A stretch of DNA of 60,000 bases from Botryllus schlosseri (Eukaryota), in NCBI GenBank assembly GCA_051294905.1, contig CM119371.1, forward strand, positions 5,148,001 to 5,208,000, written 5' to 3'. Below, piece after piece: positions 1-60,000 of this stretch. The position numbers and the translations under genes were made by a program. Every line of letters begins with the position of its first letter. Within the stretch, counting starts at the first letter, position 1. Under the pieces are notes generated by a model that saw only the letters and a list, made by a program, of their open reading frames with translations, had not been told where the DNA came from and searched no databases.

Positions 1-3000
1 TTTCCACAGTTTTCACCCTATATGACGTCATTATCGTTGGTACTCGCATACTCGACTCGATGTCTAATACTCGATCCATAATGAAGTCAGTGAAGTACTC
101 GATTTTGTCAGCCGTAAACATGTTATACAACATGCTATGAAAAATCATGGTAGGTCAGCATTGGAAACGAGTCACCATGTTCGACTCGCAAGTCATATCG
201 AGTCATTGCATATTTTGAATTGATTCAAGTTACTCGATTTTTCCAGGCCATGTCAAAAGTAGGAGTCTAGAGTCAGGGAAAGTCACTCATTTTTTTATTG
301 TGACTTGAGTCAAGGTAAGTCTCTCGATATTTCAAGGAGACTTGGGTCAGATGAAGTCACTGGAGTTAAGACAAAACACCTAAAATTGCTCACCAAGAGT
401 TAAATTATTAACGAGAATTATCGCTTTGATATTATTTTTCCTTGAGGAAAGCTGTAAACCTTGATTTGTGGTATCGCAGCGTAAGAAACATGTGGTATAA
501 AGGCACAGCATTACTGGAAACAACATATCTATGAAGTCGTGGTCCAGCCACGTATTGTCACCAACTGCAATGAAATAGGTATGGTTGAAAAATACAAATT
601 ATGTAATGTGGTGTAGAAATGGCATTACGTTATTTGTGGTCGCATAGTTGAACTTTCCAAAATTTTCACAATGGTATGCAGTCACAAGAGGTTATACTCA
701 AATACTCAACTTGAAGCTTAATACTTGGATCAGGTTAGAATTTGTCAGCTACTCGATTCTGCTCAGCCCTACACCTAATACCCTCGCAGCCTCCTTTTAC
801 AAAAATTCCTTATCAATGTTGGCTGATACTCACAAACACAACTCAGTGACCAGGCGTTCACTTTGAAGCTGTGTCCATACTTGCCGACAACTTCCGGGGC
901 AATATACTTACTTTCGTGTGCTGCAAAAAGTATTCTTTTTGTGGCTGTCAAAGTCGACCTTGGCAGCTTGAGCGAACTCTCCGATCTTCACAACTATATT
1001 GTTCACGGATAGGTTCCACAGCTGTCAATACAAATTTCACATTCAGATACACAAGTTTACAAACTTGTACAAACTAATAATCTAGCTAATTTATGACCAG
1101 CTTGGTACTTTTTTTTGAGTAGTTCAAGTTTTAGTAGCGGATTTGAAAAGCGAGTAGTTCTAGTTGTAGTTATGAAAAGTGCATGGTTATTGATATGCGT
1201 TTCCAAAGCAATTTCCGTACATCTAGAAAACATGAGTCGTCGTTTGGCGGGAATCGTGATACCGGTGTTCAGTTGTTTGATGTTTTTGCAGCCATCGCTA
1301 GATCACAGTCATAACTAGAAACAGTGGCGTAGCCAGTGAGTGGGTTTTGGGGGTTGACACACCTGTCATTTTTAAATAAAACGCCGGTCATTTTGAAATA
1401 CTGATTCTATCTTCGAATTTCCTAGTTCATTTGTTATTCAGTAATTTGTGTCATCAGTTATTAATTAGTGGCAGAATCTTCATGGTCATTAACTCCGGTT
1501 TAGAATTTTGAAAAGTGAGTAGTTTGTAGAAGTCTGACACTACTGCCAGAAATGTTACCTTGATATCCATGTGAACCATCTTACAATCGTGAAGATGAAA
1601 AACTACAAGCAGAAAATGTTGCACTTAGCAACGAGTCTCTTGTTCTGTGATGGCACACCTTCTTTAGTAAACTTTCATCAGTAATGAAAACAAATGGAAA
1701 GGTATAAAGGATTGATGGCATCAAAACATAAATATCATCTGTTGGACAAGTCTAAATCAGTTGTTGTCAACCTTTTTGCGGTCGCAGGCCAGTACAATTC
1801 TGCAACAAATTTTGTGGACCAGTGAAACTACATTTAATTTAAACTACATAAATTGGAAACTACATTTATTGCTTCCTTTTTGATATCGGACGTACTATAC
1901 CCAGAGCTCGGCAAGATCAAGTTAATGAGTGATTTCGTTCTAAATCGAGTATTAGGCTTCTTTTCGAGTATTTGGGTATCCCCAATTATGATGTCACACC
2001 AGAATGGATGATGCGGAAAGTACCAATATGGACCTTTTATGCGACCGTGAGTAAGATCATGGCAGTTTTACATCACATTAAAGATCATTCCGTATTTTAC
2101 GACCATGTCTATTTCTTGCACTTTGTGTTGGTCGATCAAAACTTCAAAGAAATGTCATTTTCACTAATATGCGGAGCTGTGTACTACATGTAAAGTATGC
2201 TGTGATACGTCTAATCGAGGTTTACAACTTTCCACACTGAGAAATAGGTTCGTAATATAATTTCCATCGGTAATTCACCTGTCAGTTAAGTTCAAGTTAT
2301 TGTTGATCATCATTGCTTATGTGGAAGGAGCGTATCATTTCAGTACTCAAAAAATCATCTCTCACTTGGCCTACTGAGTTCGAATTATTAGAATATAAAC
2401 TCGGTCAGGATTTAAGGACTCAAATCATGACGCCATGTCATCATAGTTGCGTCGCTAGAAAATTTTTATATATTTTAAAACTAGATTAGAATTGCAATTA
2501 CAGCTGCACATTTCCAAATTAGATTAGAATTACTTGGTTCGGAAGAATCCGTGAAATCCAACGGCGTGTTTGCAATACAAATTGCAGTGAAGACTGATCT
2601 CAAGGCACATTTTGCGTTTCTCATGCTCATTGAAGAACAGTGCCTGAAATTCAGATTTAGATTTTAAAGTGAGTTAGTAGTTCTACTTCTTATTCCAGTT
2701 GTTAGTTTAAAAAATAAGTAGTCCTACTTATAGTAGTCATTTTGAATGTCCAATAGTTTGAACAAGTCTGCTGAAATTCAGATGAAATTTGCATTGTATT
2801 GAAATAGGGTTTTCTGTGGCATGTTTGGAAAAGAATCAGTACTAACGATGCTATTCATTCCTTTGAATACGACTGCACTTTAATGCAGACTCCGAATAAA
2901 ACGGGCTAGTAAAACCAATCAAAAATGTCATTCTACATGAGAAGTTCAATATGTGGCCATAGGTGAAATGAGTTTTGATTGTTTTGAAACGTGACTAGAA

Positions 3001-6000
3001 GCTGAATTGAACAATCAGGAGGAGCATGACCACTTCATGAATGTCAAGAGGACGTTTATTTTATAAGGTATAATGATAGCCCCCGTTCATGCAATAATAT
3101 CGAGTCTATATTACAGTTTGAAAGATATCGACCATTAGATGTAAAAAAATACCTGTAAATTTTGTGGCGCCACAACATGGTATCAGGCAGTCGGAAAGCT
3201 GTCATCTGTGATCGCTACCCGGAAATATTCATCAATTTCTTTTCGCTTAGTAGTGGTAAAAATAGTCATCATAGTTGGTACTCGACTATAGAAGTAACAT
3301 TGTAATGTCTGCTCAAGTACAAGCTGAAGTAGCAACTTCAAAGTAGGAAATAAAGCAAGTACGGTATTCTAGACCTAGTTTTGCCTAAGAAACTGAACTG
3401 TCACATAGGAGACACACAAGTAGTCTGAAATCATAACCACTAGACTTACTTGAGCAATTAGTGCAAATATACTGCAAAACCTATTTGAGTACTCTGAAAG
3501 GATAGAAGTTCTATTGTTATGACGACGTATGTCGACAAGTGTCCAGATGCATCTTTCTCTTGTTCATTACATGTTCAAAAACATAGGAACAGCGCGCAAA
3601 ATTGTTCAAATAAATGCTCTGAAGGTTTTGGAAATGTGAATTAAGCTAGATGCCATATTATTTCAATATCAGCCGAATATATCGGGGTTATCGTTGAAGG
3701 TGCTACTTATCGGTATTGGCTCAAAATACGATATCCGTCGGGCTCGAGTTGTCATGAGTGAGACTCGAGTACGCGACTCGAAACGTAATACTCGATTCAG
3801 AATCGAATCAATCAGGAACTCAAATTTGCTGAGCCCTACGAAAAAATCTTACTGTTCAAACTCTGCAGAGGACGCTTTGGTGACGGCTTCCCGAGAACCT
3901 AGACGCCATGGTCAAGCAGATTGTGGGCAGTTTCTGTGAAATGTTGCCGTTGAAGAACCCGGTCGCCAGCACTTTCTTTACAGAGGGTCGTTGAGATGGG
4001 TCGCTTGCCAACATTCTAGTAAGAAAATCACAGATAATAATCAAAGCACAGATATCAACTCACATTTTAACATCATTTGGAAATCAATATTTGTGAAATT
4101 ACAACTATTATACAAATGTAGATTTTGATTTGATATCTTAAACTTATTCCGTGTTTGGATAGGAAGAGATTCAAGGATCAGGATGAGCAGATTTGGAGAC
4201 TTGGACACCTAGAAAATTTTCAGCTTTATGAAGTTATATTAGGATTAGAATTGCAGTACATCTACAAAGTATTTTCCATATGAGAGTACAATTATAATGA
4301 TAGCAACACAGCAATCTTCAAATGATATGAAAATGAGAATGATAGCGACATAGTTTTTGTTTCGAATTGGAGTAGAATTAGTATAACAGCTAAAGAGTTT
4401 TTCTCCAAATCAGGCAGTTATTAGAATGATGGCTACACATTGGATTACAATTGGAATTACTCAGCTCATGAAAACTTGGACATCGAATGAGGATCAGTTG
4501 ATATCAAATCAGAGATAATTCTGATAAGCAAAAGAACGTCAAATGTCTGTACATCGAGCTTGGTTAGTTTCGTACGATACAGCTCTTCTGCAGTAGTTTT
4601 AGGAAAACCAGAAATTAGATTACAGGCATTCACTCTTACTAGTTTTATTAGACAACTACACAACAATTATTACCTTGATACCTCTGTCGATGATCTTACA
4701 ATCATGAAGATAAACAACGTTAATCAGAATTGGTTGCATGCGATAACGAGTCTCCGCTTCAGTGATGACGCGTCTTCATTTGTGAACTTCCATCAACGAT
4801 TGAAAACATAAATTAAAGGTAATCGGATTGACAGGATGAAAACAGAAATATTATTTGTTGGCAACATCTAAATCAGTGGTTGAGATAGCGGGCCTGTAAA
4901 ATTCAACAACAAAATTTTTGAACCGATGAACTTTCAAATTTAAAACTTCATTTCATGCATTTTTGATATTTGACTTGGTATACGTAGGGCTGGGTGAAAT
5001 CGAGTGCCTGATTAATTTGATAAAACGAATCGAGTATTAGGCTTTGAGTTGAGTATTCGAGTATCACTTATTATGATGCAATACCAGTATGGATGATTTG
5101 TAAAGTTTGTCAATCTGCCAAACATACCAATTTAATTGCACATTGTGACAATGCTGTGAGTTGACCACGACTTCACAGATATGTCATTTCCAGTAACTTG
5201 CTTAGCTTTGTGCTACGTGTTTCGTATGCTGTGATCCGACCTATCGAGGTTTATAGCTTTCCACAGTGGAAAATACTATCAAACCATAATTCTCATTGAT
5301 AAATTCACTCTCACTTCAGCTCAGTTTGTTTGCCGCTTGTGGCCAGGAGCATATTATTCCATTACTTGGGAAAATCGCATACCACTACTCTACTCCGATC
5401 ATTAGAATGAATATTTGATTCAGAATTGAGTACTCGAATCATTGTGACCAAAGCGATAGCGATCAAAGTTGTGTAACGAAATTTTCAAATCAAAACTAGA
5501 TTAGAATTAAAATTATATCTATACAGTTTTATTTTTAAAGTAGATGTGAATCATATTCATAGCTACTGTCTCGTGCTTGAAATTAGATTTTTAGCTACAT
5601 GTTTTTTTTTAAACTAATTAGACTAGAATTACGCAATCCGCAAATGAAATGAACCCAAAATCAGTTTACTTGATATCAATTGGTTGCCCAAGTCTACCAG
5701 TAATACACGTTGCAGAGTTGATGCCTTTGCGACCATCATGGTTCCTGAGGCAATACAGTTGTAACAACGAAATGCTTTTACCCTTCTTTTGCACAACTCG
5801 AGAATGATGTCGACAAAATCCGAGATATCCAACGACGTGCTTGAGATTCATACTGCGGTGGGGACTCATCTGTCGACACATTTTGTCTTTCTGATGATCA
5901 TCCGTGAGCAATCCCTGGAATTCAGATACAGGGTGCTAGTTTTAGTTGCAGATTTTGAAAAGTGAGTAGTTCTAGTTCTATTTGCGAATTTATAGTAATT

Positions 6001-9000
6001 TCAGTTGCCAATCAACTGGGAAACGCCTGTCTTCATTCGGAGTGAATCATAACATTGTGGATAAACCTTTTTTCCAAATTCGACCAGAATTAGAATGATA
6101 GCTACAAATGTCTTTCCAACTTGCATTGGAATTGTAATAACTTACCCTAATTCATCAAAGAAATAGTACGAGAAGCAAGTTCACTTGATAACAATTCCGG
6201 GTTTATTCTCGTAAGCACGAGAATAGCAAATGTCCGTAAACCAAGCTTGGCTCGTTTCATACAATACAGTTCTTCTGTAGCATATTTAGGAACAACAGAA
6301 ATCAGATTGAAATTAAAATGTGGACGTAAAGTCATTGACAAATCAGATTAAAACTAGATTACCAGTATTTGGGGCTCTAGTAAGGATAATTAGACAAGAA
6401 TTATGTAGCTGTCCAAGTCTGCTAGGAGGTTTAATGAACGTTACAGAGCTGATACAATTGCAACCACCACAGTTTGTGAGACAGTACAGTTGTTACGAGG
6501 AATTGTTTTTACCCTTCTTTTGCGCAACTCGAGAACGCTGTAGACTAAATCCTCGTCTTGGAAAAAACCGCAAAATCAAACGACTTGCTTGTGATTCCAG
6601 CTGCAACAGTGATGATCTCCTGACACATTTTGTCGTTCTGATGACATTTCCTGAAATTGAGATTCGTACAAACAAATACCCAATCTAATTACGTGACGAG
6701 CAACTAACTACGTCTTCCTCTGACTAGTCGTATTTCTAATTGTGGACTTGGAAAAGTGAGTAGTTCCAGTTATAGTTGCACATTTTGAAAATCCATTATG
6801 GTACTTTGCTGGCCAACCATGTATACCAAGGGTAAATTAAAAAATGCATCAAGTTATAAGTGGGAAGCTTATGGCTAGGACTGGGAACAATGATTCGGAT
6901 ATTGAGCATCAATTCTAATGATGAGAGTCGAGAAGTGAGAGATGTTTTTTTAGTTTTAAAATGATACACTCCTGGCCACCATGTTGAAATCTATCAACGA
7001 GAATTATAATTTTGACATGATTTTCCTCTGTGGAAGCCAGGAATTCTCGATTGATCATATCGCATCATACGAGATATGTCGTACAAAACAATACACGTTC
7101 GTGGAAATGACATTTCTCTGAAGGAATCAACTCACAGCACTGTCACAAAGTGCAATGAAATAGGCATGGCCGAAAAACTACAAAATTATCTTTATTATGA
7201 TGTGGAACTGGCATTATAATCTTTGTGGTTGCATAAAAGGTACGTATTTGAATTTTGCACTTCAATCACAATGTTGTTGGCGATGTAATGAATGCTGCTC
7301 AAATACTCGACTCAAAGTCGAATTACTGGGGTGCGCGACATTTTCCATCTCTACACCTAAGACCCTTACAACGCCAATGCTGCATCATACTTACATAACA
7401 CAGCCCAACGACCGGGTGTCCACTTTGAAACTGTGTCCTTACTTTCCTAGAACTTCCAGGGCAATATAGTTGGATGTGCCGCATAATGTAGTCTTTTTTT
7501 GGTAGTCAAAGTCGGCTTTGGTAGCTAGGCCAGAATATCTTCATCTTTATATTGTTGTTCAGGAAGAGATTCTTCAGCTGTCAATACAAATGTTGCATTT
7601 TGTTACACAAGCATCCAGACTTGTACAAATTACCAGTCTAGTTGGTTGATAGCCAACAAACTACTGCTTCTTTAATTAGATCTAGTTGCAGATTTGAAAA
7701 GTTTGGTTGTCGGGCAACCAGAAAACACGTTTTGTATGAATCCTGATAACGTTTTTCTGTTGTGTCATGTTCTTATTTCTTGGTTCATGGCAATTCAGTA
7801 ATTCACGTACTAGTTAAGTAGTTCGTTGTGGATTCTTAATGTTCGTTAGTTCTAGTTCTAGTCGAAAATTTTGGAAAGTGAGCAAGTCTCGTTTTAGTAA
7901 TAGTAGCGTATTTCAATAGTCCCGTAGTTTGTACAAGTACGGTACCACTGCAACAAAATGTCATCTCGATATCCGTGTAAATGATCTTACCAGTATGAAG
8001 ATAAACGACTCCAAGCAAAATCTGTTGCATATCGTAACGAGACTCTGGTTCCGTGATGACGCGCCGTCTTGTGAAGTTCCATCAGCGACTCGCAACAAAA
8101 ATCAGAGCTTATTGGATTGCCCCATTGAAATCACCAATATTATTTGTTGGGCACATCTGAATCAGAGGTTCTCAATCTGTTTGAGCTCGCGGGTTGGTCA
8201 TATTCGACGTCTAATTTCGCATACCGGTGAACTTCCAATTAAAAATGACATGTAATGCTGCCTATTTGATAATAGACATGTCCTATGTAGGTATTTGTGA
8301 AATGAAGCACCCAAGTGATTTGATTATAATTCCCACTACAGAAGGCTGTAAGAGTCTATGACCTGTGTGTGAGTCATGATCAACCCACAGTATTCTCACA
8401 AAGTGTAATGAAATAGGTGTGGTCGAAAAAATACAAAATTATCATGATTGTGATGTGCAAGAATGCAACTGGCGTTAAATTGTTTGCGGTTACATACTTT
8501 AACTTTCTCCACCTTTCATACTGCTATGACGTCATTATAGATGGTACTCGAGTTCTTGACTCGAAGTCCAATACTCAATCTAGAATCGAGTCACCCAGGT
8601 ACTCGATTTTGCCCAGTTGTAACCATATTATAGAATTTTTAAAATCTCACCGTTGCAACTTGGCTCAACGTTGCAGTTGACATTCCGATAATCAGGCAAG
8701 CAGGTGGTCGGTAGTTGTTGTGGAATGTAGCCGTGGAAAACTCACTGGACAGTGATTGCCTCGCGGTGGGTCGTTGTGATCGGTCAACAGAAAATACACT
8801 GGGAAAAATCATGGTAGAAAATTCAGAGTTGGAAATGTGTCACCATGTTCGAGTCGTAAGTCATATAGAGTTATTGATCATTTTGAATTAGGTCAAGTTT
8901 TCGATTTTCCAAGGCAGGTTACTCGGTTTTTGAATGTGACTCGAGTCAAGTTAAGTCACCTGATATCTTAAGGAGACTTCAGTCAGCTAAAGTCACTCAT

Positions 9001-12000
9001 TTTTAAAGGTTACTAGAGTTAAGTAACACGCTTGAAAAAGTCCCAACACTGCGGATGCAGAACACATTTGAAAAAGGCAAACTCCCAACTCCACGTCACA
9101 GATATAACATACATTTTGATAAGATCGCAAGCTGTGATTGATATATTATGTGGAATAATATTTTCATTCTTCACGATTTTAAAGGCTTCCTGCAACGTCA
9201 TGACTCCAAACGGTACCTTACGGACCAACAATGTCAAACCACGATAGAGAAAACATGAATCAAGTTACTTTGTTTGATGTTGATGAGGGTGGGAACAATG
9301 ATTCAAGTTAAGTAGTAAAATAATTATTTTCGAGTTCTAAAACGATACGTTTCTTGCCACCAACATTAATTTTTCATAGAGAATTATAGTTTGAATACAA
9401 TTTTCCACCGTGGAAGGCTGTAAACCTTGATCAGTTATATCACAGCATACGGAATAGGTAGTATGAAGGTAAAGTGCTAGTGGAAATAACATTTTTGTGA
9501 AGTCAGGATCAACCAACAACATTGTCACAGTGCAATGAAATAGGTACGGCTAAAAAATAACAAATATTTTTTCAACTTTCACATCTTTCATACTGGTTTG
9601 GCGTCAGAATGATTTATACTCGAATACTCGAGTCAAAGTCTAATACTCTATTCAAAAATAAAATCATGTATTCGATTTTGCCCACCTCTACAGCTAAGGC
9701 CCTTGTGACCCCCATTTAGTAAGTCCCAAGTTAATGCTGCATCATACTCACGAAACACATCCCATCGACCAGGTGTCCAATTCATGACTTTTTTCCATTC
9801 TTGCCGAGAACTTCTGGGTCAAAATAGTTGGGTGTAGCTGAAGAACTATTCTTTGTTTGGCTGTCTATGTCGACTTTGGTAGTTAGGCCGAAATCTCCTA
9901 TCTTCATCTCCATTTTATTGCTCAGGAATATATTCCCAAGCTGTCAAGATAAATCCAGTTACACAACTATATAGACTTGTACGAACTACCAATCTATTTG
10001 GTTGATGGTCAACTAAGTAGGCCTACTAGTTTTGTAGGTAATTCTAGTTCTAGATAGGCATATAAAAAAGTTTACGAACAACTAGTTGACACAAGTCGTG
10101 ATATCGGTGTTATGTGGTTTGATGTTCTTTCAGTCGCAGCCATTGCTAGCTCAGAGTCACCACTATTAACAGTCGTGTAGCCTTAGGGAAGGTTATGGGT
10201 CGACACCTTCTCATTTACACTAGAAACCCGTCCTTCTGAAAGGCTGATGATCTCTGATATTTCTTAGCCCGTTGCGATTCAGTTATTCATATGTTTAATT
10301 ATTATCAGTTAGCCGTGTATTTAGTTACGTTAGTGGCAGATATTTAACAGTCGTTAGTTCGAGTTGTTGCAATGTAAATAGTCTAGCTGTAGCTACGTAT
10401 TTTGAAAATCGAGTACTTGTAGTTCTAATTCTAATTCTGAATTATGGAAAGCAAGTAGTTCTGGTTGTAGTTGTGAATTCATAAAAGTGAGTAGTTGTAG
10501 TTTGGGTTTCGTAATGAAAATCCATTGGTTTGAACAAGTCTGGTACCACTGCAAGCAATGTTACCTGCTTATCCCTTTTACTGATCTTAATCGTGAAGAT
10601 GAACGACTGCAAGCAGAATCTGTTGCATGTAATAACGAAACTCTGGTCCTGTGACGACGCATCTTCTTTTGTAAACTTCCATCAGCGACTATCAACAAAA
10701 TTCAAAGCTCATGGGAATAATGGAATGAAAACGACAATACTATTTGTGTGGAACATCTAAATCAGTAGTTCACAACCTGTTTGAGTTACTGGTCAACAAA
10801 AATTCTGACATAAAACGTAGCAGACAGGGTGACCTTCTAAAATAGAAATTCATTCCATGCTGCTTTTTTGATTTTAGACACGAAACAGAGTGATTCGATT
10901 CTAAACCGAGATTTAGGCTTCTAGTCGATCATTACTTATTATCACGTCACAACAGTACGGAAGATGCGGAAAGTTCAAATATGTAACTTTATTGTGACAA
11001 AAAACAATATCATGCCTGATCTACATGACATCAAAGATAATTTGTATGTTTTTGCCATACCGGTACCGTACCTATTTCATGCACGATGTGGCAATGATGT
11101 GGGTTGATCACAGCTTCACAGATATTTGGAAGGCATTTGCTATATTTAGTTTTATTAGATAACTCCGCTATGATTATTTAGTTACCCAAGTCTGACCATG
11201 ACAATGTAAAAGTACTTCGTTACTGATCAACTCTGACCTAGTACAATGCAAGCAATATTACCATGATATCTCTGTGAATGATCCTACAGTGATGAAGTTA
11301 AACGGGTCCAACCACAATCTGCTACATGAAAGAAAGAGTCTTTGGTTCTGTGATGGAGCGCCATCTTTTGTAAGCTTCCATCAGCGACTGACAATATAAA
11401 TTTAGGGATTGACAGGGTGAAAATAACAATACCATTTGCTGCAACATCGAAATCAGTGGTTCTCAACCTTTCTGAACTAGCGGGCCAGTAAAATCTGACA
11501 GCAATTTTTTGCGCAGATGAACTTTCCAAATTAAAAACTTCGTTTCATGCTGCCTTTTTGATATTTGACTACCTGACTGATTTGAAATTGAATCGAGTAG
11601 AATGCTTCGAGTCGAGTATTACTTTTTATGGTTCCATACCAGAATGGTTGAGAAAATTCAAATATGTGGACTACCTTTCACGCTGCTACAAACAATATAC
11701 TAAAGACAATTTGTCTATTCTCGACCACGCCTATTTCATTACACTATGTTGTTAATGCTGTGATTGATCACGACGTCACAGATATATCATTTCTAATAAC
11801 GTGCATAACTTTGTACTCCATACTTCATATGCCGTGATACTGCTAATTGAGGTTTACAGCTTTCAACAGTGGAAATAGTATTGAAGCTATAATTCTCATG
11901 GATAAATCCACTCCCAGTTAATCTCAGTTTGTTTTTAATCATTTCACCTCTTGTGGCAAGGAGCGTATCATTTCAGTACTATAAAAAGTCGTTTTCACTA

Positions 12001-13068
12001 CCAGACTCTGATTATTATGATTTACTCAATTCAGATTCGAATATTCAATTCATTGTGACATCCCCTAGTGGTCAAAATTGTGCAACTAGAGAATTTTCAG
12101 CTGTTAGTAACTAGATTAGAATTACAATAATAGCTAAACACGTTTTTTTTTAAATTTGATTAGAAATTTGATTAGAACAGTGATAACTACACCCTACACA
12201 AGTCTTTCCACTTTAAATTATAATTATAATTACTCATTTAATCAAAGAAATTGTACAAAAATACGGTGTCAGTTCATATCACATCAGGGTTTCTTCTCAT
12301 AAGCACGACAATAGCAAATGTCTGCACATGTGGCTTGGCTCGTTTCATACGATACAACTCTCGCGTAGCATTTTAGGAGCACCAGACATTACATTAAAAT
12401 TAAACTGTGGACGTACCGTAAACGCATTGACGAATCAGACTCTCACAAGATTACCAATATTTGGCTCCATTTTGGTTGATTAGACAAGAAGTATCTAGTT
12501 GTCCAAAGTCTGCTAGTAATGAACATTACAGAGCTGATGCAATTGCGCAACACTTTGAGAGGCATTACAGTTGTTACAAGAAAATGCTTTCACCTTTCTT
12601 TTGCACAACTCGAGAACGATGTCGACAAAATGGAAAAATCTGTGAAATATAACGACATGCTCGTGATTGGAACTGCGATGGAGGCTCATCTCTTGACACA
12701 TTTTCTATTTCTAATGATCATTTCCTGAAACTGAGACTCGTACAAATCACCTATGTAGTTCGGTGACAAGCAACCAACTAAGTCTTTCTCTGACTAATTC
12801 TATTTCTAATTGTGGACTTAAAAAATTAAGTACCGTAATTTTCCAAGTATAGTACGCCCCCATGTATAATACGAACTCTTAAAATGGCATGCAAATTCTG
12901 GAAAAAGCCTGTGCCCATGTATAGTACGCACCCTGCATTTAAAGTACACGAATAGCTGTGTTTCAGTATACTATGTCGACATGTCGTTCTGTTTTGCGAT
13001 GTCACTATTCAACAATCATGACATAACCATCGCTAATCATTATGCAATTAACAGCACTGTCTCTAAAC

Positions 13069-18323: not shown

Positions 18324-18327
18324 TATA

Positions 18328-21120: not shown

Positions 21121-21159
21121 TCGACTCGTGACTCGGGCAAAATTTACGGGTCAATTTCA

Positions 21160-25998: not shown

Positions 25999-26111
25999 AT
26001 ATCGGCAGCTAATTTTCTTTTAAATGCACAACGAGAACTATAACTAGACGCTGTTCAAAATCATGAACTAGAATTATAACTAATTTGACATTAGAACTAC
26101 AACTAAGAGCT
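25999..26111 (+). repeat. Left copy of the 113-bp LINE target-site duplication
   Basis: ATATCGGCAGCT...AACTAAGAGCT is identical base for base to 31174-31286. Confidence 0.95.
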
Positions 26112-26323
26112 TTTCAGTGATTTTATTTCAAAGTGCATACACAAAAAATAAATTGTATCAGCTTTTAAGATGTTAATCTTATGGTTAAGCATGATGATAA
26201 GTGTGGGGTTCAACGTATAGAGTATATCATGGAATACATCAAGTTAGAAATGTTCAGGTTTTCCTTCAAGTAAGCTTATTCACAAGTATATTACGCTCAT
26301 ATATCATTTATATACAGACACTT

Positions 26324-48345: not shown

Positions 48346-49335
48346 TGCGGAAAAGCGTTTGCTCGGATCGGACACTTGAAAACACATGAGAATACACATA
48401 CTGGAGTCAAAAACTATGAGTGTCAGATATGCGGAAAAGCTTTTAATCGGCTTTGTGACTTGAAAAAACATGGAAATACACATACCGGAGTCAAAAAATA
48501 TAAGTGTCGGATATGCGGAAAAGCGTTTACCCAGCTTGGTAACTTGAAACAACATGGAAATACACATACTGGAGTCAAAAACTATGCATGTCAGATTTGC
48601 GGAAAAGCGTTTGCTCTGATCGGACACTTGAAAACACATGAGAATACACATACTGGAGTCAGAAACTATGAGTGTCAAATTTGTGGAAAAGCATTTATCA
48701 GGCTCAGTAGCTTGAAAATACATGGATATACACATACCGGAGTCAAAAACTATGCATGTCAAATTTGTGGGAAAGCGTTTATTAAGCTCAGTAACTTGAA
48801 AAGACATGGAAAGGCACATACCGGAGTCAAAAACTATAGGTGTGAAATCTGCGGACAAGCATTTACGCAGCTCGACTACTTGAAAACACATGGAAATACA
48901 CATACTGGAGTCAAAAACTATGCATGTCAGATTTGCGGAAAAGCATTTACCCGGCTTGGTAACTTGAAACAACATGGGAAGACACATACTGGAGTCAAAA
49001 ATTATGCATGTCAGATCTGTGGAAAAGCGTTTATCCATCTTGGTAACTTGAAACAACATGGGAATACACATACTGGAGTCAAAAACTATGCATGTCAGAT
49101 CTGCGGAAAAGCGTTTACCCAGCTCAGTCACTTGAAAACACATGACAATACACATAATGGAGTCAGAAACTATGCATGTCAGATTTGCGGAAAAGCATTT
49201 ACTCAGATTGGTCACTTGAAAGAACATGGGAATACACATACTGGAGTCAGAAACTATGCACGTCAGGTCTGCGGAAAAGCGTTTACACACCTTGGTAACT
49301 TGAAAAGGCATGAAAGTACACATTCAGTTGAATAG
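48346..49335 (+). CDS. Tandem C2H2 zinc-finger array (10 intact fingers, 1 degenerate finger and a 5' half finger); 5'-incomplete
   Basis: 28-aa/84-bp repeats CQICGKAFxxLxxLKxHGNTHTGVKNYx, open to TAG at 49335. The ORF-track start (48376) is TTG, there is no in-frame ATG, and an in-frame TAA sits at 48325. Confidence 0.75.
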   Translation, partial: CGKAFARIGHLKTHENTHTGVKNYECQICGKAFNRLCDLKKHGNTHTGVKKYKCRICGKAFTQLGNLKQHGNTHTGVKNYACQICGKAFALIGHLKTHENTHTGVRNYECQICGKAFIRLSSLKIHGYTHTGVKNYACQICGKAFIKLSNLKRHGKAHTGVKNYRCEICGQAFTQLDYLKTHGNTHTGVKNYACQICGKAFTRLGNLKQHGKTHTGVKNYACQICGKAFIHLGNLKQHGNTHTGVKNYACQICGKAFTQLSHLKTHDNTHNGVRNYACQICGKAFTQIGHLKEHGNTHTGVRNYARQVCGKAFTHLGNLKRHESTHSVE

Positions 49336-52300: not shown

Positions 52301-55300
52301 TGAAAAATATTGTAGATATCATCGTCATTTTAAACAGACTAGGTTTGAAACGCGATAGGTTTATACCCCCAAAACCACCTCTGCTTATATCGATGTCTTT
52401 TGGTAGTGATGACTCTGAGTTACCAGTGGCTGCAAGATCATCGCACAACAGAACACCAGCATCATGATGACACACATTTTCTAGTTGTTCGGCAACTGCA
52501 TTTCTATTGCAATGCACAACTTGAACTAGAGCTGCTTACTTTTTAAATACGCAAATGTACAACTAAAACTAGAACTACTCAAAAAAGCAGCAGTTACCGT
52601 AGTTCGCCATCATTTAACTGGATTGGTAGTTTCTGAAACTCTATACTTGTGTAACTTGATGTGAAATTTTAACTGACAGCTGGAGAACCTCTTCCTGAAA
52701 AATATGGAGAAGTTTGAAGATTTCAGTTGAGCTACCAAGGTCGACTGTGACAGCCACACAATGAATACTCCTTGCGGCACTCCCGACTATCGACGACCCG
52801 GAAGTTCTCGGCCAGAATCGACACATATACGAAGTGGACACCTTGGTCGTGTTTTGTAAGTATGATGCACCAATAGCACCATTGATTAGGGATTTTTATG
52901 AAAATAGGTCGCAAGGGTCCTAAATCTAATTCTGGGCCAAATCGAGTACCTGACTGATTCTATCATGATCCGAGTATTCGGCTTCAGGTTAACTATTTGA
53001 GTATCACCTCTTGTGACGGCATAATGCTTTGGAAATTGTGGATAGTTCAAATATGCGACCACAAATAATGTAATGCCATTTCTACACCAACTTGAATAAT
53101 TTTGTATTTTTTCAACCATACCTTTCCAGTTCCACTCTGTGACAATGCGTGGCTTGATCACGACTTGATATATATGTCATTTCCACTAACACTGTACGTT
53201 TATACTACATGTTTCTTATGCTGCGATGCGGCCAATTGAGGTTTACAGCCTTCCACGTTATAAAATGGGGACGAAATCATAATTTTCGTTGATAAAATTA
53301 ACTGTTGGAGGCAAGAAGCATATCATCTCACAACTCGAGTCGAATCATTGTGCCAGGACTAGCAACAAACATCTGATTTGATAATTTGATGCATGTTTTT
53401 CTTTATCGTAGGTATATGCATTGCTGGTCGGTGAGCTACCGCTTGAATGCCAGACGTTGCAGGAAACTTTCATTAGGAGAAGAATGGATACACGATTCTA
53501 CAAAATAATCGCCTCCAGCTTGTGACCATGTCAAAAGGTATGTTTTAACTCTTTTGCTTTTTTTTCCAATGTGCTCCGCAGTATTGGGATGACCGCGTCA
53601 ACTTTTTCAAGTGTCTTGACTTATCGAGTCACAATAAAAATCGAGTAACTTGACTTGCCCCGAAAAATCGAGTAACTGGACTCGATTCAAAATATGCAAT
53701 GACTTGATCTGACTTGTGACTCGAACATGGTGACTTGTTTCCTACACTGACCTATCATGATTTTCACAGTTTGTTGTCTGTTAACCCATCACAATGAACT
53801 ACTGTGAATCATGCACTGTCCAGTGAGTCTTTCAAGGCTACATTCCATAAGAACTGCCGACCATCTGCTTGGCTATCACGCCCTGAATATCGCGGAGTCA
53901 AATGGAGCCAAGTTTCAAAAGTGAGATTTTTACAAGTATAAAATATGGTTATGAATGGGCAAAATTAAGTGTTTGAATCTTGAGTATCATTTCAGTGCTG
54001 GAGTAAATCATCTCTCACTTGTCGGCTGGAATCATTGGAATAAATACTTGATTCAAATTAGACTCCTTGAACCATTGTGCACAGCCTGAGAGCACGAACC
54101 GGGGTCATAATGACGTGAGTCATGACTCGACTCGAGTCATTGCGCATGACTTAACGAAGTTGTAAAACTTACGGCAAATCAAGCCAGAAAGTGTCTTATT
54201 TGTTATTTTTCGACGATGCCTATTTCATTGCACTTTGTGACAATGCTGTGTGTTGATCATGACTTCCCAGAAATGTCATTTCCACTAACACTGTGCTTTA
54301 TTACTCCATATTTTCTAAGCTGTGATGCGACCAATCGATGTTCACAGCCTTCCTCAGTGGAGAATAGTATTCAAGTTATTGTTCTTGTTATTAAATTTAC
54401 TGTTGGCGGCAAGAAGCGTATCATTTCATTACTGGAAAAAATCATCTCTCACTACTCGACTCGAGCCATAGTGCCAAGGTCACATTAAAAAATCTAGTAA
54501 CTGGACTCTAGACATTTAGAATATGCAATGACTCTATATGACTTATGAATCGAACATACTGACTCGTTTGCAACGCTCTCCTATCAGGACTTTTCACAGC
54601 ATGTTTTCTATTGACCCATCACAACGACCTACCACTAAGCAAGCACTGTCCAGTGAGTTTTTCCACGGCTACATTCCACAACAACTACCAACAACCTGCT
54701 CACCTGATTATCGGGAAGTCAACTTGAGCCAATTTCAACGGTGAGATATTTATAATTCTATAATATGGTTACGGCTGGGCAAAATCGAGAATCTGAGTGA
54801 CTCGATTCTAGATCAAGTATTAGACTTCAAGTAAGAACTCGAGTGCCATCTATAATGACGTCATAGCAGTATGAAAGTTGTAGAAAGTATGCAACCGTAA
54901 ACAATATAACGCCAGTTGCACATCACAATCAAGATAATTATGTATTTTTTCGACCACACCTATTTCATTACACTTTGCTGTTGTTTGATCACGACTTACA
55001 GATATGTCACGGATGCTTACAGCCTTCTATAGTGGGAATTATAATCGAATCACTTGGGTGCTTCGTTTCACCAAGACCTGCATAGGACATGTATTCATGT
55101 AATTTTTAATTAGAAAGGCTCACTGCTACGCAAAATTAATTGTCGAATTTGACCAGCCAGCGAGCTCGAACAGGTTGAGAACCTCTGATTGAGATGTGCC
55201 CGACAAATAATATTTGTGATTTCATTCGTGCAATCCAATTAGCTTTGATTTATGTTGCCAGTCGCTGATGAACCTTCACAAAAGAAGGCGCGTCATCACG

Positions 55301-56213
55301 GAACCAGAGACTCGTTATTACATGCAACAGATTCTGCTGGTAGTTGTTTGTCGTCACGATGGTAAGATTACTCAAACTGATATCAAGGTAACATTTGGTT
55401 GCAGTGGTACCGGACTTGTACAAACTACTTGATTTATGGACTACAACTAGGCTTATCCACTTTCCAGAATCTTCAACTAGAACTGGAACAAACGACCGTT
55501 AACAATCCACAACTAACCACTTAACTAACATATTAATTACTGAATTGCAATCGACTAAGAAATAAGAACATCACACAACAGGTAAAATGATATCACGATT
55601 CACATGAAACGTGTTTTCTAGTTGTCCGACAACGAAACCTTTCAAATCCGCAACTACAACTACTAAGAAAGCAGTCGGTTGTTGGCCATCAACTAACTAG
55701 ATAGGTAATTCGTATAAGTCTGGATGCTTGTGTAATTAAATGTGAAATTTGTATTGACAGGAGAATCTATTCCTGAGCAACAACATGAAGATTGGAGATT
55801 TTGACCTAGCTACTAGAGTCGACTTTGACAGCCAAACAAAGAACACGTTTTGTGGCACATCCAACTATATTGCCCCGGGAGTTGTAGGGAAGTAAGGACA
55901 CAGTTTCAAAGTGGACACCCGTCGATGGGTTGTGTTTTGTGAGTATGATGCAACCTTGGGGTTGTAAGGTTCTTAGGTGTAGAACTGGGAAATATTGCAC
56001 ACCCGAGTAATTCGGCTCTTAATCGAGTCGAGTATTTGAGTAGCATTCATGACAGCGTTACCAACATTTTCATTGCCCATTGTCCAAGGGTCTGTGCAGT
56101 GACGTGGTGAGTGTGCGCAGACTTGTCAAAAATTAGAGGGAACATTGACTAGAACTACTTGCTTTCCATGTCCACAATTAGAAATAGAACTAGTCCGAGA
56201 AAGATGTAGTTAG

Positions 56214-56869: not shown

Positions 56870-58283
56870 GTATTTAGTTGATCGTTACCAAACTAGATTG
56901 GTTATTTGTATGAGTCTCAATGTCAGGCAATGATAATCAGAAAGACAAAATGTCAAGAAATGTCATCTGTCTAAATCGCAGTTTTAATCGCAAGCACGTT
57001 TGATTTCGCCGATTCTTCCAAGACAAGGATTTTGTCGACATCATTCTCGAGTTGTGCAAAAGAAGGGTAAAAACATTTCCTCGTTACAACTGTAATGTCT
57101 CTCAAACTGTGCTGGTCGCAGTTGCAATTCTAATCTAATTTCAGGTTTTCTTGAAATCGCTACAGGAGAACTGTGTTGAACGAAACTAACCAAGTTCGAT
57201 GTACGGACATTTGGCATTGCCGTACTTATGAGGATGAATGCTGATTTGATATGAAAATTTGCACAGCCATCATTCTAATTACTGTCTAATTTGGAGAAAG
57301 CTGTTTAGCTTTCATTCTAGTTCTAGTCCAATTCGAAACAAAAACTGTGTAGCTATCATTCTCGTTTCCATGTAATTCGGAGATTACTGTGTTGCTATCG
57401 TTATAATTTTATTCTAATATGGAAAAAGAACTGTGTAGATATACTGCAATTCTTATCATAATATAGTTTCATGACGTTGAAAATTTTCTAGTTGTCCAAG
57501 TCTCCATATCTGCTTATTCTGATCCTTGAATCTCTTCGTATCCAAACACGGAATAAGTTTACGATATCAAATCCAAATCTACATTCGTATTATTGTTTTA
57601 AATCCACTAATGTTGATTTCCAAACAATCTTAAAATTTGAGTTATCATCTGTGATTTGATTAATATCTGTGATATCCTCACCAGAATGTTGGCATGCGAC
57701 CCGTCTCAACGAACCTCTGTAAAAGAAGTGCTGGCGACCGAGTGCACAACGTGGCGCCCAGGTTCTCGGAAAGCCGTCACCAAAGAGTCCTCTGCAGAGT
57801 TTGAACGGTAATATTTTTTGGAAGGCTTAGCAAATTCGAGTTCCCGATTGATTGGATTCCGAAATAGTATTGCGTTTCGAGTTGTGTACTCGAGTATCAC
57901 TCATTATAACTCGAGCCCGACCGATATCGTATTTTGAGCCAATACCGATAAGTAGCACCTTCACCGTTAACCCCAATATATTCGACGGCTATGAAATACG
58001 GCAACTAGCTTAAAGTACATTTCCAAACCTTCAGGGTGTATATTTGAACAACTTTGCGCGCCGTTGCAATGCTTGAACATGAAATGAACGAGAAAAGATT
58101 AATCTGGACACTTGTAAGGAGAGGTGGTCAGAAACAAAGTACTTCCACTTTTACAGAGTACTCAAGTAGGTTTTGTCGTGTACTTGCACTAATTACTCGA
58201 GTCAGTCTAGTGGTTCCGATTTTAGATAACTTGTTTATCTCCTGTCACAGTTGACTTTTTAGTCAGAACTAGAATTAGAATAC

Positions 58284-58504: not shown

Positions 58505-60000
58505 TCTCCTCTTTTAAGAGGATTTGTCCTCTTCTTTGACTTTTTTGAAAGCGGACTTGATATGAAAATAGTGACTTGACTTGACTCGAGTCAAAATATG
58601 CAATGATTCGATATGACATGTGACTAGAAAATAGTAACTTGACTTGACTCGAGTCAAAATATGCAATGACTCGATATGACTTGCCACTTGAAATCGTAAC
58701 TTGATTTGACTCGTGTCAAGATTGGCAAAGACCTGAGATGACTTGTGACTTAAAGGCGACTTGATCCCAACACTGACCTACCGTGCTTTTTTCCACAGCA
58801 TGTTATCTATTGACCCATCTCAACGACCTTCTGGAGAGCAAGTTGTGTCCACTTTTTGCAAGGCTACATTCCTCAACGACTATCGACCACCTGTTCGACT
58901 ATCATTATGACATTATCACAACACGTCAACTCGAGACAACTTTCAATGGTGAGCTTTTCATAATTCTATGATAAGGTTGTGGTATATTGCGGCCAAACTT
59001 GGACAACTAGATCATTTCCATCTATTCAAATTGCGTTACAGTTAAAATCATAAATGTAGTTTTTTCCAACTTGGGCTGGAATTAGAATTATAGCTTCACT
59101 GATTTCTCAAATTAGATTAGATTTAGAATAATAGCTACACAATGATTGCCAAATTAGATAAGAATACTGATTATAGCTAGGTATATAAGTTTTTTTTCAA
59201 AATAGTTTATAATTAAAATCATTGATACACAGGTTTTTTCAAATTAGATTGGAATTTGATTTACTGAATTCACGAAAAGGAAATTGCATCAAGTTCGGTT
59301 CGTATGAAGCAGAGTCCATTCTCATAAGCACGAGAATGGCAAATATCTGCTTGGATTGTTTTACGTGATATAGATTCCTGTAGCAATTTCAGGAAAGTCA
59401 TAAAGTAGATTAGAATTAAAATGATAGCGTAGAAACATTTCACAAATTAAATTTGAATTAGATTACAGGCATTTCGCTGTAACTAGTGTAATTAGACAAC
59501 TAGAAATATTTAGTTGTCCAAACCAGATCAGTAAGATTGGGCTAAATCAAGTCTCTGTGTGAATCGATTCGGAGCTTAATACTGAGTGTCGAGTAAACTA
59601 ATCTAGTACCTGTGGCCGACAAGTAGTAGTTTGCCTATCATAGCAAGTCGATATCAGACGTTGTAAGAAATATCAGTATTGGCCATGAGGGGCGATACAA
59701 TATCAACTATTTTGATGACGTCACAACTTGGTAGTAGGGAGTTAGAGAACTCTAATCTATGACTGTTGAACTGGGAATATTCATCTGTCACTTATAGACT
59801 ACAGACATGGATGGTCGAAGTAATCAACGTTGATACTTAGCTACAAGTATAGAGTTTTCACTCAATTACAAGTGGCTTGGCTAGGCGGCTACTTCGGGTT
59901 CACGGCAATATACTGGGCGTCGATTCAAGCCCTGTGGATAGCGTTTTATGTTTTTTGTGGATGCAGTGAAATTTTGTCTGCAGGGCGGCCGAGATTACAG

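What the first reader, a model, noticed from the sequence alone, without database searches (positions are those of the whole stretch)
834..58948. About 34 scrambled copies of Polo-like kinase exons
Seen: six PLK1-type kinase exons recur with their own flanking introns and mostly intact GT/AG sites, but in non-colinear order. Array 1 reads 1-2-2-3-3-4-5-6-3-4-2-2-3-6-2-3-4, array 2 reads 1-2-3-6-2-3-4-6 and array 3 reads 4-5-6-6-3-4-2-6-6. Many copies have stops or frameshifts, yet three E3 copies (34576, 37197, 55262) are still exactly 126 nt and open. Known: PLK1/polo is normally a low-copy, conserved mitotic and meiotic kinase. Inference: a lineage-specific birth-and-death expansion of PLK kinase modules by repeated exon-level DNA duplication. 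It could reflect an amplified germline gene family, a source of noncoding or small RNA, or carriage by a large mobile unit.
Basis: partly seen in the sequence, partly recalled or inferred. Interest (0 to 1): 0.7.

Follow-up and report, generated by a model that had tools for sequence, protein, structure and literature searches.

The report
Decayed PLK1 exon copies, zinc-finger cluster
The window holds 34 broken leftover copies of exons of the cell-division kinase PLK1, which were copied along passively as a surrounding cluster of zinc-finger genes kept duplicating, so they are ordinary genomic debris, though unusually abundant.

Summary
The window holds 34 PLK1 kinase-domain exon fragments in exactly the three orders reported; array 1 lies on the minus strand.

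They are dead, unprocessed pseudo-exons. 30 of 34 carry a frameshift or stop, and only the three E3 copies are intact.

Between copies, exon identity (0.79) equals non-exon identity (0.77), and codon positions diverge evenly. NG86 dN/dS is 0.62, against 0.75 (0.62-0.90) in a neutral simulation.

The window is one slice of a field of about 2.5 Mb (C1:4.03-6.51 Mb). That field holds at least 300 such fragments in 22 alternating-strand blocks. It surrounds two intact PLK1 genes that encode identical 567-aa proteins.

The fragments are co-amplified with two families of C2H2 zinc-finger genes whose reading frames stay open.

Non-colinear junctions are shared between arrays, so multi-kb blocks were duplicated, not single exons.

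Three bulk RNA runs showed no spliced or locus-specific reads, and no positive control was run.

Verdict: neutral duplication debris riding in an expanding zinc-finger gene cluster. A known kind of thing at unusual scale, of modest interest.

The parts
16724..16914 (-). PLK1 E1 fragment #1 (array 1)
   Evidence: 76% id to parent exon, 3 frameshifts, 1 stop
16050..16209 (-). E2 fragment #2
   Evidence: 80% id, 1-nt deletion, 2 stops, AG/GT
12588..12716 (-). E2 fragment #3 (5' truncated)
   Evidence: 78% id, 2 stops
11254..11400 (-). E3 fragment #4
   Evidence: 126 nt, 2 stops
10561..10700 (-). E3 fragment #5
   Evidence: 2-nt deletion
9739..9952 (-). E4 fragment #6
   Evidence: 3 frameshift indels
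9106..9234 (-). E5 fragment #7
   Evidence: 65% id, 2 frameshifts
8641..8785 (-). E6 fragment #8
   Evidence: 3 frameshifts, 2 stops
7954..8101 (-). E3 fragment #9
   Evidence: 2-nt deletion, donor AT
7382..7589 (-). E4 fragment #10
   Evidence: 5-nt deletion, 1 stop
6507..6658 (-). E2 fragment #11
   Evidence: 3 frameshifts, 1 stop
5776..5922 (-). E2 fragment #12
   Evidence: 17-nt deletion
4669..4812 (-). E3 fragment #13
   Evidence: 126 nt, 1 stop, acceptor AA
3842..4030 (-). E6 fragment #14
   Evidence: 84% id, 1 frameshift
2527..2651 (-). E2 fragment #15 (3' truncated)
   Evidence: 117 of 150 nt, 1 stop
1555..1694 (-). E3 fragment #16
   Evidence: 2 stops, acceptor damaged
823..1033 (-). 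E4 fragment #17
   Evidence: 2 frameshifts
32755..32936 (+). E1 fragment #18 (array 2)
   Evidence: 2 frameshifts, 1 stop
33555..33714 (+). E2 fragment #19
   Evidence: 86% id, 1-nt deletion
34564..34709 (+). E3 fragment #20; exon 34576-34701, intact
   Evidence: 126 nt, open, AG/GT
35341..35544 (+). E6 fragment #21
   Evidence: 8-nt insertion, 2 stops
35988..36150 (+). E2 fragment #22
   Evidence: 1-nt deletion, 2 stops
37184..37333 (+). E3 fragment #23; exon from 37197, intact
   Evidence: 126 nt, open, AG/GT
38311..38495 (+). E4 fragment #24
   Evidence: 3 frameshifts, 1 stop
39467..39586 (+). E6 fragment #25 (3' truncated)
   Evidence: 108 of 167 nt, no donor aligned
52674..52868 (+). E4 fragment #26 (array 3)
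   Evidence: 2 frameshifts, 1 stop
53410..53544 (+). E5 fragment #27
   Evidence: 4 frameshifts, 1 stop
53761..53931 (+). E6 fragment #28
   Evidence: 3 stops
54591..54724 (+). E6 fragment #29
   Evidence: frameshift, 1 stop
55249..55391 (+). E3 fragment #30; exon from 55262, intact
   Evidence: 126 nt, open, AG/GT
55749..55951 (+). E4 fragment #31
   Evidence: frameshift, 1 stop
56914..57072 (+). E2 fragment #32
   Evidence: 3 frameshifts, 1 stop
57678..57818 (+). E6 fragment #33
   Evidence: 44 nt deleted
58784..58902 (+). E6 fragment #34 (3' truncated)
18328..19551 (-). C2H2 zinc-finger exon 'ZNF1': 407-aa open frame, 12 canonical fingers, directly upstream of array 1 on the same strand
   Evidence: With its flanks (17000-21600) it has at least 17 paralogs at 77-92% in C1:4.1-6.5 Mb
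48328..49335 (+). C2H2 zinc-finger exon 'ZNF2': 335-aa open frame, 10 canonical fingers, upstream of array 3 on the same strand
   Evidence: With its flanks it has at least 20 paralogs at 78-93% in the same field
24862..31722 (.). Left arm of an inverted repeat that brackets array 2, split by the LINE insertion
   Evidence: 24862-26106 and 31211-31722 match 43975-41552 in reverse at 75-89%
41552..43975 (.). Right arm of the inverted repeat that brackets array 2
26324..31023 (-). Non-LTR retrotransposon inserted into the left arm. ORF1 is 459 aa with a CCHC knuckle; ORF2 is 1108 aa with endonuclease and reverse transcriptase. Both are open
   Evidence: strong AT skew at 26-32 kb

Best explanation
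The 34 fragments are unprocessed (DNA-duplicated) pseudo-exons of PLK1 that now evolve neutrally or nearly so.

Inferred history:
1. PLK1 lay in or next to a cluster of tandem C2H2 zinc-finger genes.
2. A segment holding a zinc-finger gene followed by the 5' half of PLK1 (exons 1-6, with introns) was duplicated and lost function.
3. Internal deletions, local re-duplications and inversions scrambled it.
4. The scrambled block was then copied again and again, in direct and inverted orientation, as the zinc-finger cluster grew by segmental duplication. Non-allelic recombination or replication template switching is the inferred mechanism.

Shown here: DNA-level origin, decay, near-neutrality, shared junctions, co-amplification with zinc-finger genes, and confinement to one field of about 2.5 Mb that also holds the two functional PLK1 genes.

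Inferred, not shown: that selection on the zinc-finger genes drove retention of the amplicons, and the molecular mechanism of duplication. On this reading the PLK1 pieces have no function of their own.
For: 1. Decay. 30 of 34 fragments have a frameshift or stop, and 3 of 34 are intact.

2. Neutrality between copies.
- In 18 block alignments, exon identity is 0.792 (3366 columns) against non-exon identity 0.773 (9047 columns). The youngest pair gives 0.853 against 0.849.
- Codon-position differences in 24 nearest pairs are 0.215, 0.181 and 0.214.
- NG86 omega is 0.62, against a neutral simulation with the intron-derived spectrum of mean 0.75 and 95% range 0.62-0.90.

3. Contrast with the parents. 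Parent genes A (C1:5790872-5807146, minus) and B (C1:6285475-6298495, plus) encode identical 567-aa proteins. They differ at 44 of 1704 CDS sites, all at third positions.

4. Single or few origins. Copies share derived residues absent from the parent: E3 A11V in 6 of 8 copies and E2 A13C in 6 of 8.

5. Inherited scrambling.
- Window 7263-8876 aligns to 56075-54526 at 80.6% and spans E4-E3-E6 in both arrays.
- Window 3474-4649 aligns colinearly to 35899-34806 across the E3>E6 junction.
- Array 3 is an inverted paralog of 3364-10053.

6. Field. Matches at E<=0.01 number 34 for E1, 102 for E2, 106 for E3 (95 on C1:4.03-6.51 Mb, parents included), 84 for E6 and 36 for E9. Nearly all lie on C1:4.03-6.51 Mb, and the E3 hits form 22 alternating-strand blocks.

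7. Co-amplification.
- ZNF1 plus flanks has at least 17 in-field paralogs at 77-92%.
- 13 of 18 in-field copies, the window's own included, have E3 fragments on the expected side and strand within 25 kb.
- ZNF2 plus flanks has at least 20 in-field paralogs.

8. Zinc-finger genes look maintained.
- 6 of 6 sampled ZNF1-type copies keep open frames of 314-427 aa.
- They hold 69 canonical fingers, with the highest entropy at positions that I map, from recall of the standard finger numbering, to helix positions -1, +3 and +6.

9. RNA. In three bulk RNA runs, 264, 79 and 128 reads were laid on window 1-18300. Of these, 260, 79 and 127 fit only partly, and no GT..AG joint between fragments was seen.
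Against: - Omega of 0.62 sits at the low edge of the neutral simulation: 2.3% of simulations reach it or lower. Second codon positions are slightly less diverged. Some residual constraint, or an early constrained phase, is therefore not excluded.
- Omega against the parent is 0.29, below the roughly 0.5 expected if the copies had been neutral ever since they split from the parent. GC-to-AT decay at GC-rich third positions may explain part of this.
- E3 copies carry 2 frameshift indels where 11.3 are expected from the other exons (Poisson P about 0.001). Three intact E3 copies out of 8 has P about 0.05.
- Splice dinucleotides are retained more often than the average site, although local alignment biases this count.
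- The RNA test covered only array 1 and three runs sampled at 6-13%. It included no small-RNA library and no positive control.
- ZNF1's 3' flank showed almost no reads either, so expression of the zinc-finger genes is not shown.
- Only gene positions, not the sequence, of most of the 2.5-Mb field were examined.
Confidence: 0.78

Rival explanations
1. The inverted PLK1-fragment arrays are transcribed, for instance in the germline, into hairpin or antisense RNA. That RNA yields small RNAs (piRNA or endo-siRNA) which tune PLK1 dosage, in the manner of pseudogene-derived small RNAs.
For: Arrays in opposite orientation lie within 15-40 kb of each other: array 1 is on the minus strand, arrays 2 and 3 on the plus strand. 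An inverted repeat brackets array 2. The field shows 22 alternating-strand blocks. It surrounds the two functional PLK1 genes.
Against: - Fragments are only 64-86% identical to the parent exons, which is poor for small-RNA targeting.
- Exon parts are no better conserved than spacers.
- Three bulk RNA runs gave almost only partial, repeat-like reads on array 1.
- No small-RNA library was available.
Confidence: 0.07
2. A transposable element (Helitron-like, Pack-type or a large DNA transposon) captured PLK1 exons and amplified them.
For: - Gene pieces in scrambled order with intron flanks resemble TE-captured fragments.
- Interspersed repeats that also occur in parent introns 5 and 9 sit at the E3>E6 junctions.
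- A different, polo-box-only PLK1 segment is dispersed at 98-99% identity on C8, C12 and C16.
Against: - Almost all kinase-exon fragments lie in one 2.5-Mb field: 95 of 106 E3-type matches are there, and the rest are a few on unplaced contigs or other kinases.
- Copies are 64-85% alike, not young.
- The repeat unit is tens of kb and carries host zinc-finger genes.
- Terminal TE hallmarks were not searched for.
Confidence: 0.08
3. Some fragments are used as coding exons of new or alternative transcripts, for example a truncated kinase N-lobe protein or chimeras with the zinc-finger genes.
For: Three E3 copies are intact with AG/GT. E1, E2 and E3 are all phase 0-0, so they could be combined in frame. 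E3 shows a deficit of indels. ZNF1 and array 1 are head-to-tail on one strand.
Against: Every E1, E2, E4 and E5 copy in the window has a frameshift or stop, or is truncated. No splice joints were seen in the RNA reads. About 11% of 126-nt exons are expected to stay intact by chance at the measured decay rate.
Confidence: 0.04
4. Assembly artefact: a mis-assembled or over-expanded repeat region.
For: Ampliconic regions are hard to assemble. The two parent genes form an inverted pair 480 kb apart, which could in principle be a misplaced haplotype.
Against: Copies differ by 15-35%, far more than assembly duplicates or alleles would. The parents differ at 11% of synonymous sites and 4-16% in introns. 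Contigs of an unrelated 2015 run laid on 29 of 30 bins of window 1-18300 at 95% identity or better, though only in short pieces.
Confidence: 0.03

Closest known systems
Unprocessed (duplicated) pseudogene fragments inside segmental-duplication or ampliconic regions
   Same: Exons are copied with intron flanks and splice sites. Homology runs in multi-kb blocks that include non-coding DNA. Direct and inverted copies cluster locally, neighbouring genes are co-duplicated, and decay is neutral.
   Different: The scale and the source gene are unusual. At least 300 fragments of one essential mitotic kinase lie in about 2.5 Mb, and kinase exons E2, E3 and E6 are roughly three times more numerous than E1 or the polo-box exon E9.
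Tandem C2H2 zinc-finger gene clusters that grow by local duplication (such as vertebrate KRAB-ZNF clusters; this comparison is from recall, and PMC4592553 was seen only as a search listing)
   Same: There are dozens of local paralogs. Each has a long single-exon finger array that stays open, a conserved Cys/His scaffold, and hypervariable residues at the positions I map to helix -1, +3 and +6.
   Different: This is a tunicate-type genome. No KRAB or other effector domain was found in the finger exons, and upstream exons were not modelled. Expression was not shown.
Gene-fragment capture by Helitrons or Pack-type transposons (from recall)
   Same: Pieces of a host gene, with intron sequence, appear in non-colinear order and in many copies.
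   Different: Copies here are not dispersed, are old and divergent, and ride in units of tens of kb together with host genes. No TE termini were identified, and none were searched for.
Bona fide PLK1 / polo genes
   Same: The fragments match PLK1 best among solved kinases and derive from this genome's own PLK1 exons 1-6.
   Different: The window holds no polo-box exons and no continuous reading frame, and the order is non-colinear. The real genes lie 0.58 and 1.08 Mb away on the same contig.

Membership tests
PLK1 (polo-like kinase 1) gene | Kinase-domain sequence closest to PLK1 rather than to other kinases | tested here: met
   PDB phmmer gives PLK1 at 2.7e-10, then PLK2 and PLK3; AKT2 scores 1.6e-4. 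tblastn with ascidian-type PLK1 gives 34 fragments.
PLK1 (polo-like kinase 1) gene | C-terminal polo-box domain present | tested here: not met
   The window has no match to residues 314-572 of P0002 other than one chance-level hit at E 8.8.
PLK1 (polo-like kinase 1) gene | Colinear exons that give a continuous open reading frame | tested here: not met
   30 of 34 fragments have a frameshift or stop, and their order is non-colinear.
Processed pseudogene (retrocopy) | Exons joined without introns | tested here: not met
   Fragments are 0.4-3 kb apart. They keep AG (27 of 32) and GT (29 of 34) and 90-200 bp of upstream intron homologous to the parent.
Unprocessed pseudogene in a segmental-duplication amplicon | Homology between copies extends through non-coding DNA at the same identity as the exons | tested here: met
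   Exon identity 0.792 against non-exon 0.773 over 18 block alignments.
Unprocessed pseudogene in a segmental-duplication amplicon | Local clustering with co-duplicated neighbouring genes | tested here: met
   95 of 106 E3-type matches lie on C1:4.03-6.51 Mb. The ZNF1-then-PLK-array arrangement recurs in 13 of 18 in-field ZNF1 copies. ZNF2 is co-amplified as well.
Unprocessed pseudogene in a segmental-duplication amplicon | Neutral evolution after duplication | tested here: met
   Codon-position differences 0.215/0.181/0.214. Omega 0.62 against a neutral simulation of 0.75 (0.62-0.90). The observed value lies at the lower edge of that range, so a small residual constraint is not excluded.
TE-captured gene fragments (Helitron or Pack-type) | Copies dispersed over the genome | tested here: not met
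   Kinase-exon fragments are confined to one field plus a few unplaced contigs.
TE-captured gene fragments (Helitron or Pack-type) | Defined element termini, target-site duplications or TE genes around the fragments | not tested
   No search for termini was made. The only TE genes seen belong to a LINE inserted later, at 26324-31023.
Small-RNA (piRNA or endo-siRNA) source locus | Transcription of the locus | tested here: inconclusive
   Three bulk RNA runs gave almost only partially fitting reads on window 1-18300. There was no positive control and the tissues are unknown.
Small-RNA (piRNA or endo-siRNA) source locus | Small RNAs of 21-30 nt mapping to it | not testable with these tools
   No small-RNA run was listed.
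Tandem C2H2 zinc-finger gene cluster | Arrays of canonical C-x2-C-x12-H-x3-H fingers in long open frames | tested here: met
   Pfam zf-C2H2 at 3.7e-71 and 5e-69. Each of the 7 arrays examined holds 9-14 canonical fingers, in open frames of 314-427 aa.
Tandem C2H2 zinc-finger gene cluster | Hypervariable DNA-contact residues on a conserved scaffold | tested here: met
   Entropy is 2.0-2.2 bits at finger positions 10, 13 and 16, mapped from recall to helix -1, +3 and +6. Cys and His are invariant across 69 fingers.
Tandem C2H2 zinc-finger gene cluster | N-terminal effector domain (such as KRAB, SCAN or BTB) | not tested
   Only the finger exons were scanned. Upstream exons were not modelled.

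The most novel reading that the evidence does not exclude
The field is not inert. The opposed PLK1-fragment arrays around the two functional PLK1 genes would be transcribed in the germline into double-stranded or antisense RNA, and small RNAs made from it would set PLK1 dosage. Alternatively, the field is the trace of a meiotic-drive-type arms race over PLK1 that the co-amplified zinc-finger genes police. The E3 indel deficit, the retained splice sites and the omega at the low edge of neutrality would then be the footprint of weak selection.
Probability: 0.06. Interest if true: 0.7.

Novelty: new member of a known kind. Interest (0 to 1): 0.3.

Why it matters
- Annotation hygiene. Hundreds of PLK1-like pseudo-exons in 2.5 Mb of a sea-squirt-type genome will produce spurious kinase gene models, inflate kinome counts and attract mis-mapped reads. 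The real PLK1 genes are the two copies at C1:5.79-5.81 Mb and 6.285-6.298 Mb.
- A worked example. An essential, normally low-copy gene that happens to sit in a fast-duplicating gene cluster can seed a very large pseudogene field. An apparently 'scrambled exon' pattern can arise from a few rearrangements followed by block duplication.
- The more interesting object may be the passenger's vehicle. It is a large, locally amplified C2H2 zinc-finger cluster with hypervariable contact residues, in a non-vertebrate chordate.

Tried and rejected
- Retrocopy origin: rejected, because intron flanks and splice sites are present.
- No RNA holder listed. The run search listed no holder on record as RNA. Its three small-share rows (0.05-0.06 of words) were not interpreted.
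- Intron homology test. A global-alignment test of deep intron homology to the parent used a poor scoring scheme. All scores were close to the shuffles and one control scored highest, so it is uninformative and unused.
- First automatic model of parent gene A. It skipped exon 8 because that exon's tblastn hit fell under my threshold. This was corrected.
- Full-length PLK1 as a genome-wide query. Other kinases crowded the result, so I used single exons instead.
- Pfam Pkinase over the genome. It listed only other kinases.
- Sequence around the window.
- Rfam at gathering thresholds: no match in the window.
- Earlier findings of the scan. Two notes from elsewhere in the same genome were unrelated apart from calling it sea-squirt-like. 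Nothing turned up near the window, by sequence or by words.
- Literature. Four full-text searches listed no paper on PLK1 pseudogene amplification or on such a zinc-finger cluster in tunicates. Only the listings and the starts of abstracts were seen.

Full report
**What is there**

The window is G000:C1:5148001-5208000 of a 495.5-Mb assembly in 219 contigs. The best named relatives of its PLK1 are from Ciona, Styela, Clavelina and Phallusia, so it is an ascidian-type tunicate genome.

I ran tblastn of a 572-aa PLK1 from that search (P0002) against the window. I then aligned each hit to this genome's own PLK1 exons. This gives 34 fragments of coding exons 1-6, the kinase domain.

- Array 1 (minus strand, 16914 down to 823) reads 1-2-2-3-3-4-5-6-3-4-2-2-3-6-2-3-4.
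- Array 2 (plus strand, 32755-39586) reads 1-2-3-6-2-3-4-6.
- Array 3 (plus strand, 52674-58902) reads 4-5-6-6-3-4-2-6-6.

The kinase family call is sound. For the E3 frame, PLK1 structures score 2.7e-10, PLK2 and PLK3 follow, and the next family (AKT2) scores 1.6e-4. No polo-box exon is present in the window.

**State of the copies**

- 27 of 32 acceptors are AG and 29 of 34 donors are GT.
- 30 of 34 fragments carry at least one frameshift or in-frame stop.
- One more, an E6 copy, is truncated.
- Only the three E3 copies that start at 34576, 37197 and 55262 are full length (126 nt), open and flanked by AG/GT.
- Identity to the parent exons is 64-86%.

**The parent genes**

Two full-length PLK1 genes lie on the same contig: copy A at C1:5790872-5807146 (minus) and copy B at C1:6285475-6298495 (plus). 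Each has 11 GT-AG coding exons and encodes the same 567-aa protein, which is 82% identical to P0002.

The two coding sequences differ at 44 of 1704 positions, all of them third codon positions. Introns are 84-96% identical. Both copies are therefore under strong purifying selection.

**Are the fragments under selection?**

Against the parent, pooled NG86 dN/dS is 0.29. That figure includes the constrained parent lineage, so copy-to-copy comparisons are more telling.

- In 24 nearest pairs, differences per site are 0.215, 0.181 and 0.214 at codon positions 1, 2 and 3, and omega is 0.62.
- A neutral simulation used the substitution spectrum of the non-exon parts of the same blocks. It gives omega 0.75, with a 95% range of 0.62-0.90.
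- In 18 block alignments that contain both exon and spacer, exon identity is 0.792 and spacer identity 0.773. The youngest block gives 0.853 and 0.849.

The copies therefore evolve at, or very close to, the neutral rate.

Some residual signals are not explained:
- Omega lies at the low edge of the simulation.
- E3 copies have 2 frameshift indels where 11.3 are expected.
- Three intact E3 copies out of 8 has P about 0.05 at the decay rate of the other exons.

**How the 'scrambling' arose**

Homology to the parent covers the exon plus about 90-200 bp of upstream intron. Homology between copies runs through whole spacers. Non-colinear junctions are shared between arrays:

- Window 7263-8876 aligns to 56075-54526 at 80.6% and contains E4, E3 and E6 in both.
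- Window 8606-10053 aligns to 53965-52563 (E6, E5, E4).
- Window 3364-4434 aligns to 58283-57265.
- Array 3 is thus an inverted paralog of the middle of array 1.
- The E3>E6 junction region of array 1 (3474-4649) is colinear with that of array 2 (35899-34806).

Copies also share derived residues absent from the parent: E3 A11V in 6 of 8 and E2 A13C in 6 of 8.

So a few rearrangements in an already dead copy were propagated by duplication of multi-kb blocks. Thirty-four independent exon-level events are not needed.

**The wider context**

I searched the whole genome with single parent exons. Matches at E<=0.01:

| Exon | Matches |
|---|---|
| E1 | 34 |
| E2 | 102 |
| E3 | 106 (95 on C1:4.03-6.51 Mb, both parents included) |
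| E6 | 84 |
| E9 (polo-box) | 36 |

Nearly all matches lie on C1:4.03-6.51 Mb, with a few on unplaced contigs. These counts are lower bounds by the tool's own statement. The E3 hits form 22 blocks of alternating strand.

Between the arrays the window holds two long open C2H2 zinc-finger exons: 18328-19551 on the minus strand (407 aa) and 48328-49335 on the plus strand (335 aa). Each lies upstream of a PLK array on the same strand.

- The first, with its unique flanks, has at least 17 paralogs at 77-92% identity within the same field.
- In 13 of 18 in-field copies, E3 fragments lie on the expected side and strand within 25 kb.
- The second, with its flanks, has at least 20 in-field paralogs at 78-93%.
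- All six sampled ZNF1-type copies keep open frames of 314-427 aa.
- Their 69 canonical fingers have invariant Cys and His. The highest entropy falls at finger positions 10, 13 and 16, which I map from recall to helix positions -1, +3 and +6.

At the stop and indel rates measured on the PLK fragments, frames of this length would not stay open by chance. This last point is my own inference from the rates.

**Expression**

Three bulk RNA-seq runs, sampled at 6-13%, were laid on window 1-18300. They gave 264, 79 and 128 reads, of which 260, 79 and 127 fit only partly. No GT..AG joint between fragments was seen. Depth peaks fall on a high-copy repeat at 12.8-15.9 kb.

No positive control could be laid and no small-RNA library was available. 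This is weak evidence against transcription and says nothing about small RNAs.

**Interpretation**

The best-supported reading (about 0.78) is neutral, unprocessed pseudogene debris. A block holding a zinc-finger gene followed by the 5' half of PLK1 died and was rearranged. It was then copied in direct and inverted orientation as the zinc-finger cluster expanded by segmental duplication.

The driver (selection on the zinc-finger genes) and the molecular mechanism (non-allelic recombination or template switching) are inferred, not shown.

Rivals:
- A small-RNA source (0.07).
- Transposon capture (0.08). This is disfavoured by the confinement to one field, the old and divergent copies, and the large units that contain host genes.
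- Use as coding exons (0.04).
- Assembly artefact (0.03).

**Comparison with what is known, and novelty**

This is a member of a known kind: duplicated pseudogene fragments in an ampliconic gene cluster. Its size and its source gene are unusual. Four full-text searches listed nothing on it. Only the listings were seen, and most subscription journals are not in that library. Interest is modest (0.3).

Noticed in passing
G000:C1:5790872-5807146 (minus) and C1:6285475-6298495 (plus); loci L015, L016, L020 and L019, L017, L018: Two full-length PLK1 genes lie in inverted orientation 480 kb apart and encode identical 567-aa proteins. They differ at 44 of 1704 CDS sites, all at third codon positions, and their introns are 84-96% identical. 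They are either true paralogs under strong constraint or a misplaced haplotype.
   Followed up: partly
L009 (C8:20705000-20714999), L011 (C16:22458000-22467999), L013 (C12:20414000-20423999); also C16:22489152, C12:20461280, C15:165015: A polo-box-only PLK1 segment (exons 8-10 or 8-11, 85-91% identical to the parent) is dispersed on other chromosomes at 98-99% mutual identity over 3-7 kb. On C12 and C16 it occurs as inverted pairs 41 and 25 kb apart that share the same TAG stop. This looks like a recent, possibly transposon-borne dispersal, separate from the old kinase-exon field.
   Followed up: partly
window 26324-31023 (minus): A non-LTR retrotransposon with both reading frames open: ORF1 of 459 aa with a CCHC knuckle, and ORF2 of 1108 aa with endonuclease and reverse transcriptase. 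It is inserted into the left arm of the inverted repeat that brackets array 2, so it is younger than that repeat. It accounts for the strong AT skew at 26-32 kb.
   Followed up: partly
window 44504-45424: A tandem repeat of about 29 copies of a 23-bp unit, with a 223-bp higher-order period. A short inverted segment of the same unit lies at 44504-44677. The unit contains a CCCTAA-like, telomere-type motif.
   Followed up: no
window 12811-15860: A high-copy interspersed repeat splits the spacer between two E2 fragments. It draws nearly all of the RNA and contig depth laid on array 1.
   Followed up: no
window 4225-4620 and 34839-35061; parent gene region (pB coordinates) 8152-8330 and 13625-14040: The same pair of short interspersed repeats sits at the E3>E6 junctions of arrays 1 and 2 and also in introns 5 and 9 of the parent PLK1 gene. 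This hints that repeat-mediated recombination made the E4-E5 deletion.
   Followed up: no
G000:C1:26.136-26.145 Mb, C1:21.97-22.13 Mb, C1:9.6-10.2 Mb, C1:32.5-37.2 Mb: Further clusters of related C2H2 zinc-finger arrays lie on the same contig. The one at 26.14 Mb shares ZNF1's unique flanks. The others match only the finger array, at 72-81%.
   Followed up: no
window E3 copies (fragments 4, 5, 9, 13, 16, 20, 23, 30): E3 copies carry 2 frameshift indels where 11.3 are expected from the rate in the other exons (Poisson P about 0.001), while their stop rate is as expected. This is unexplained.
   Followed up: partly
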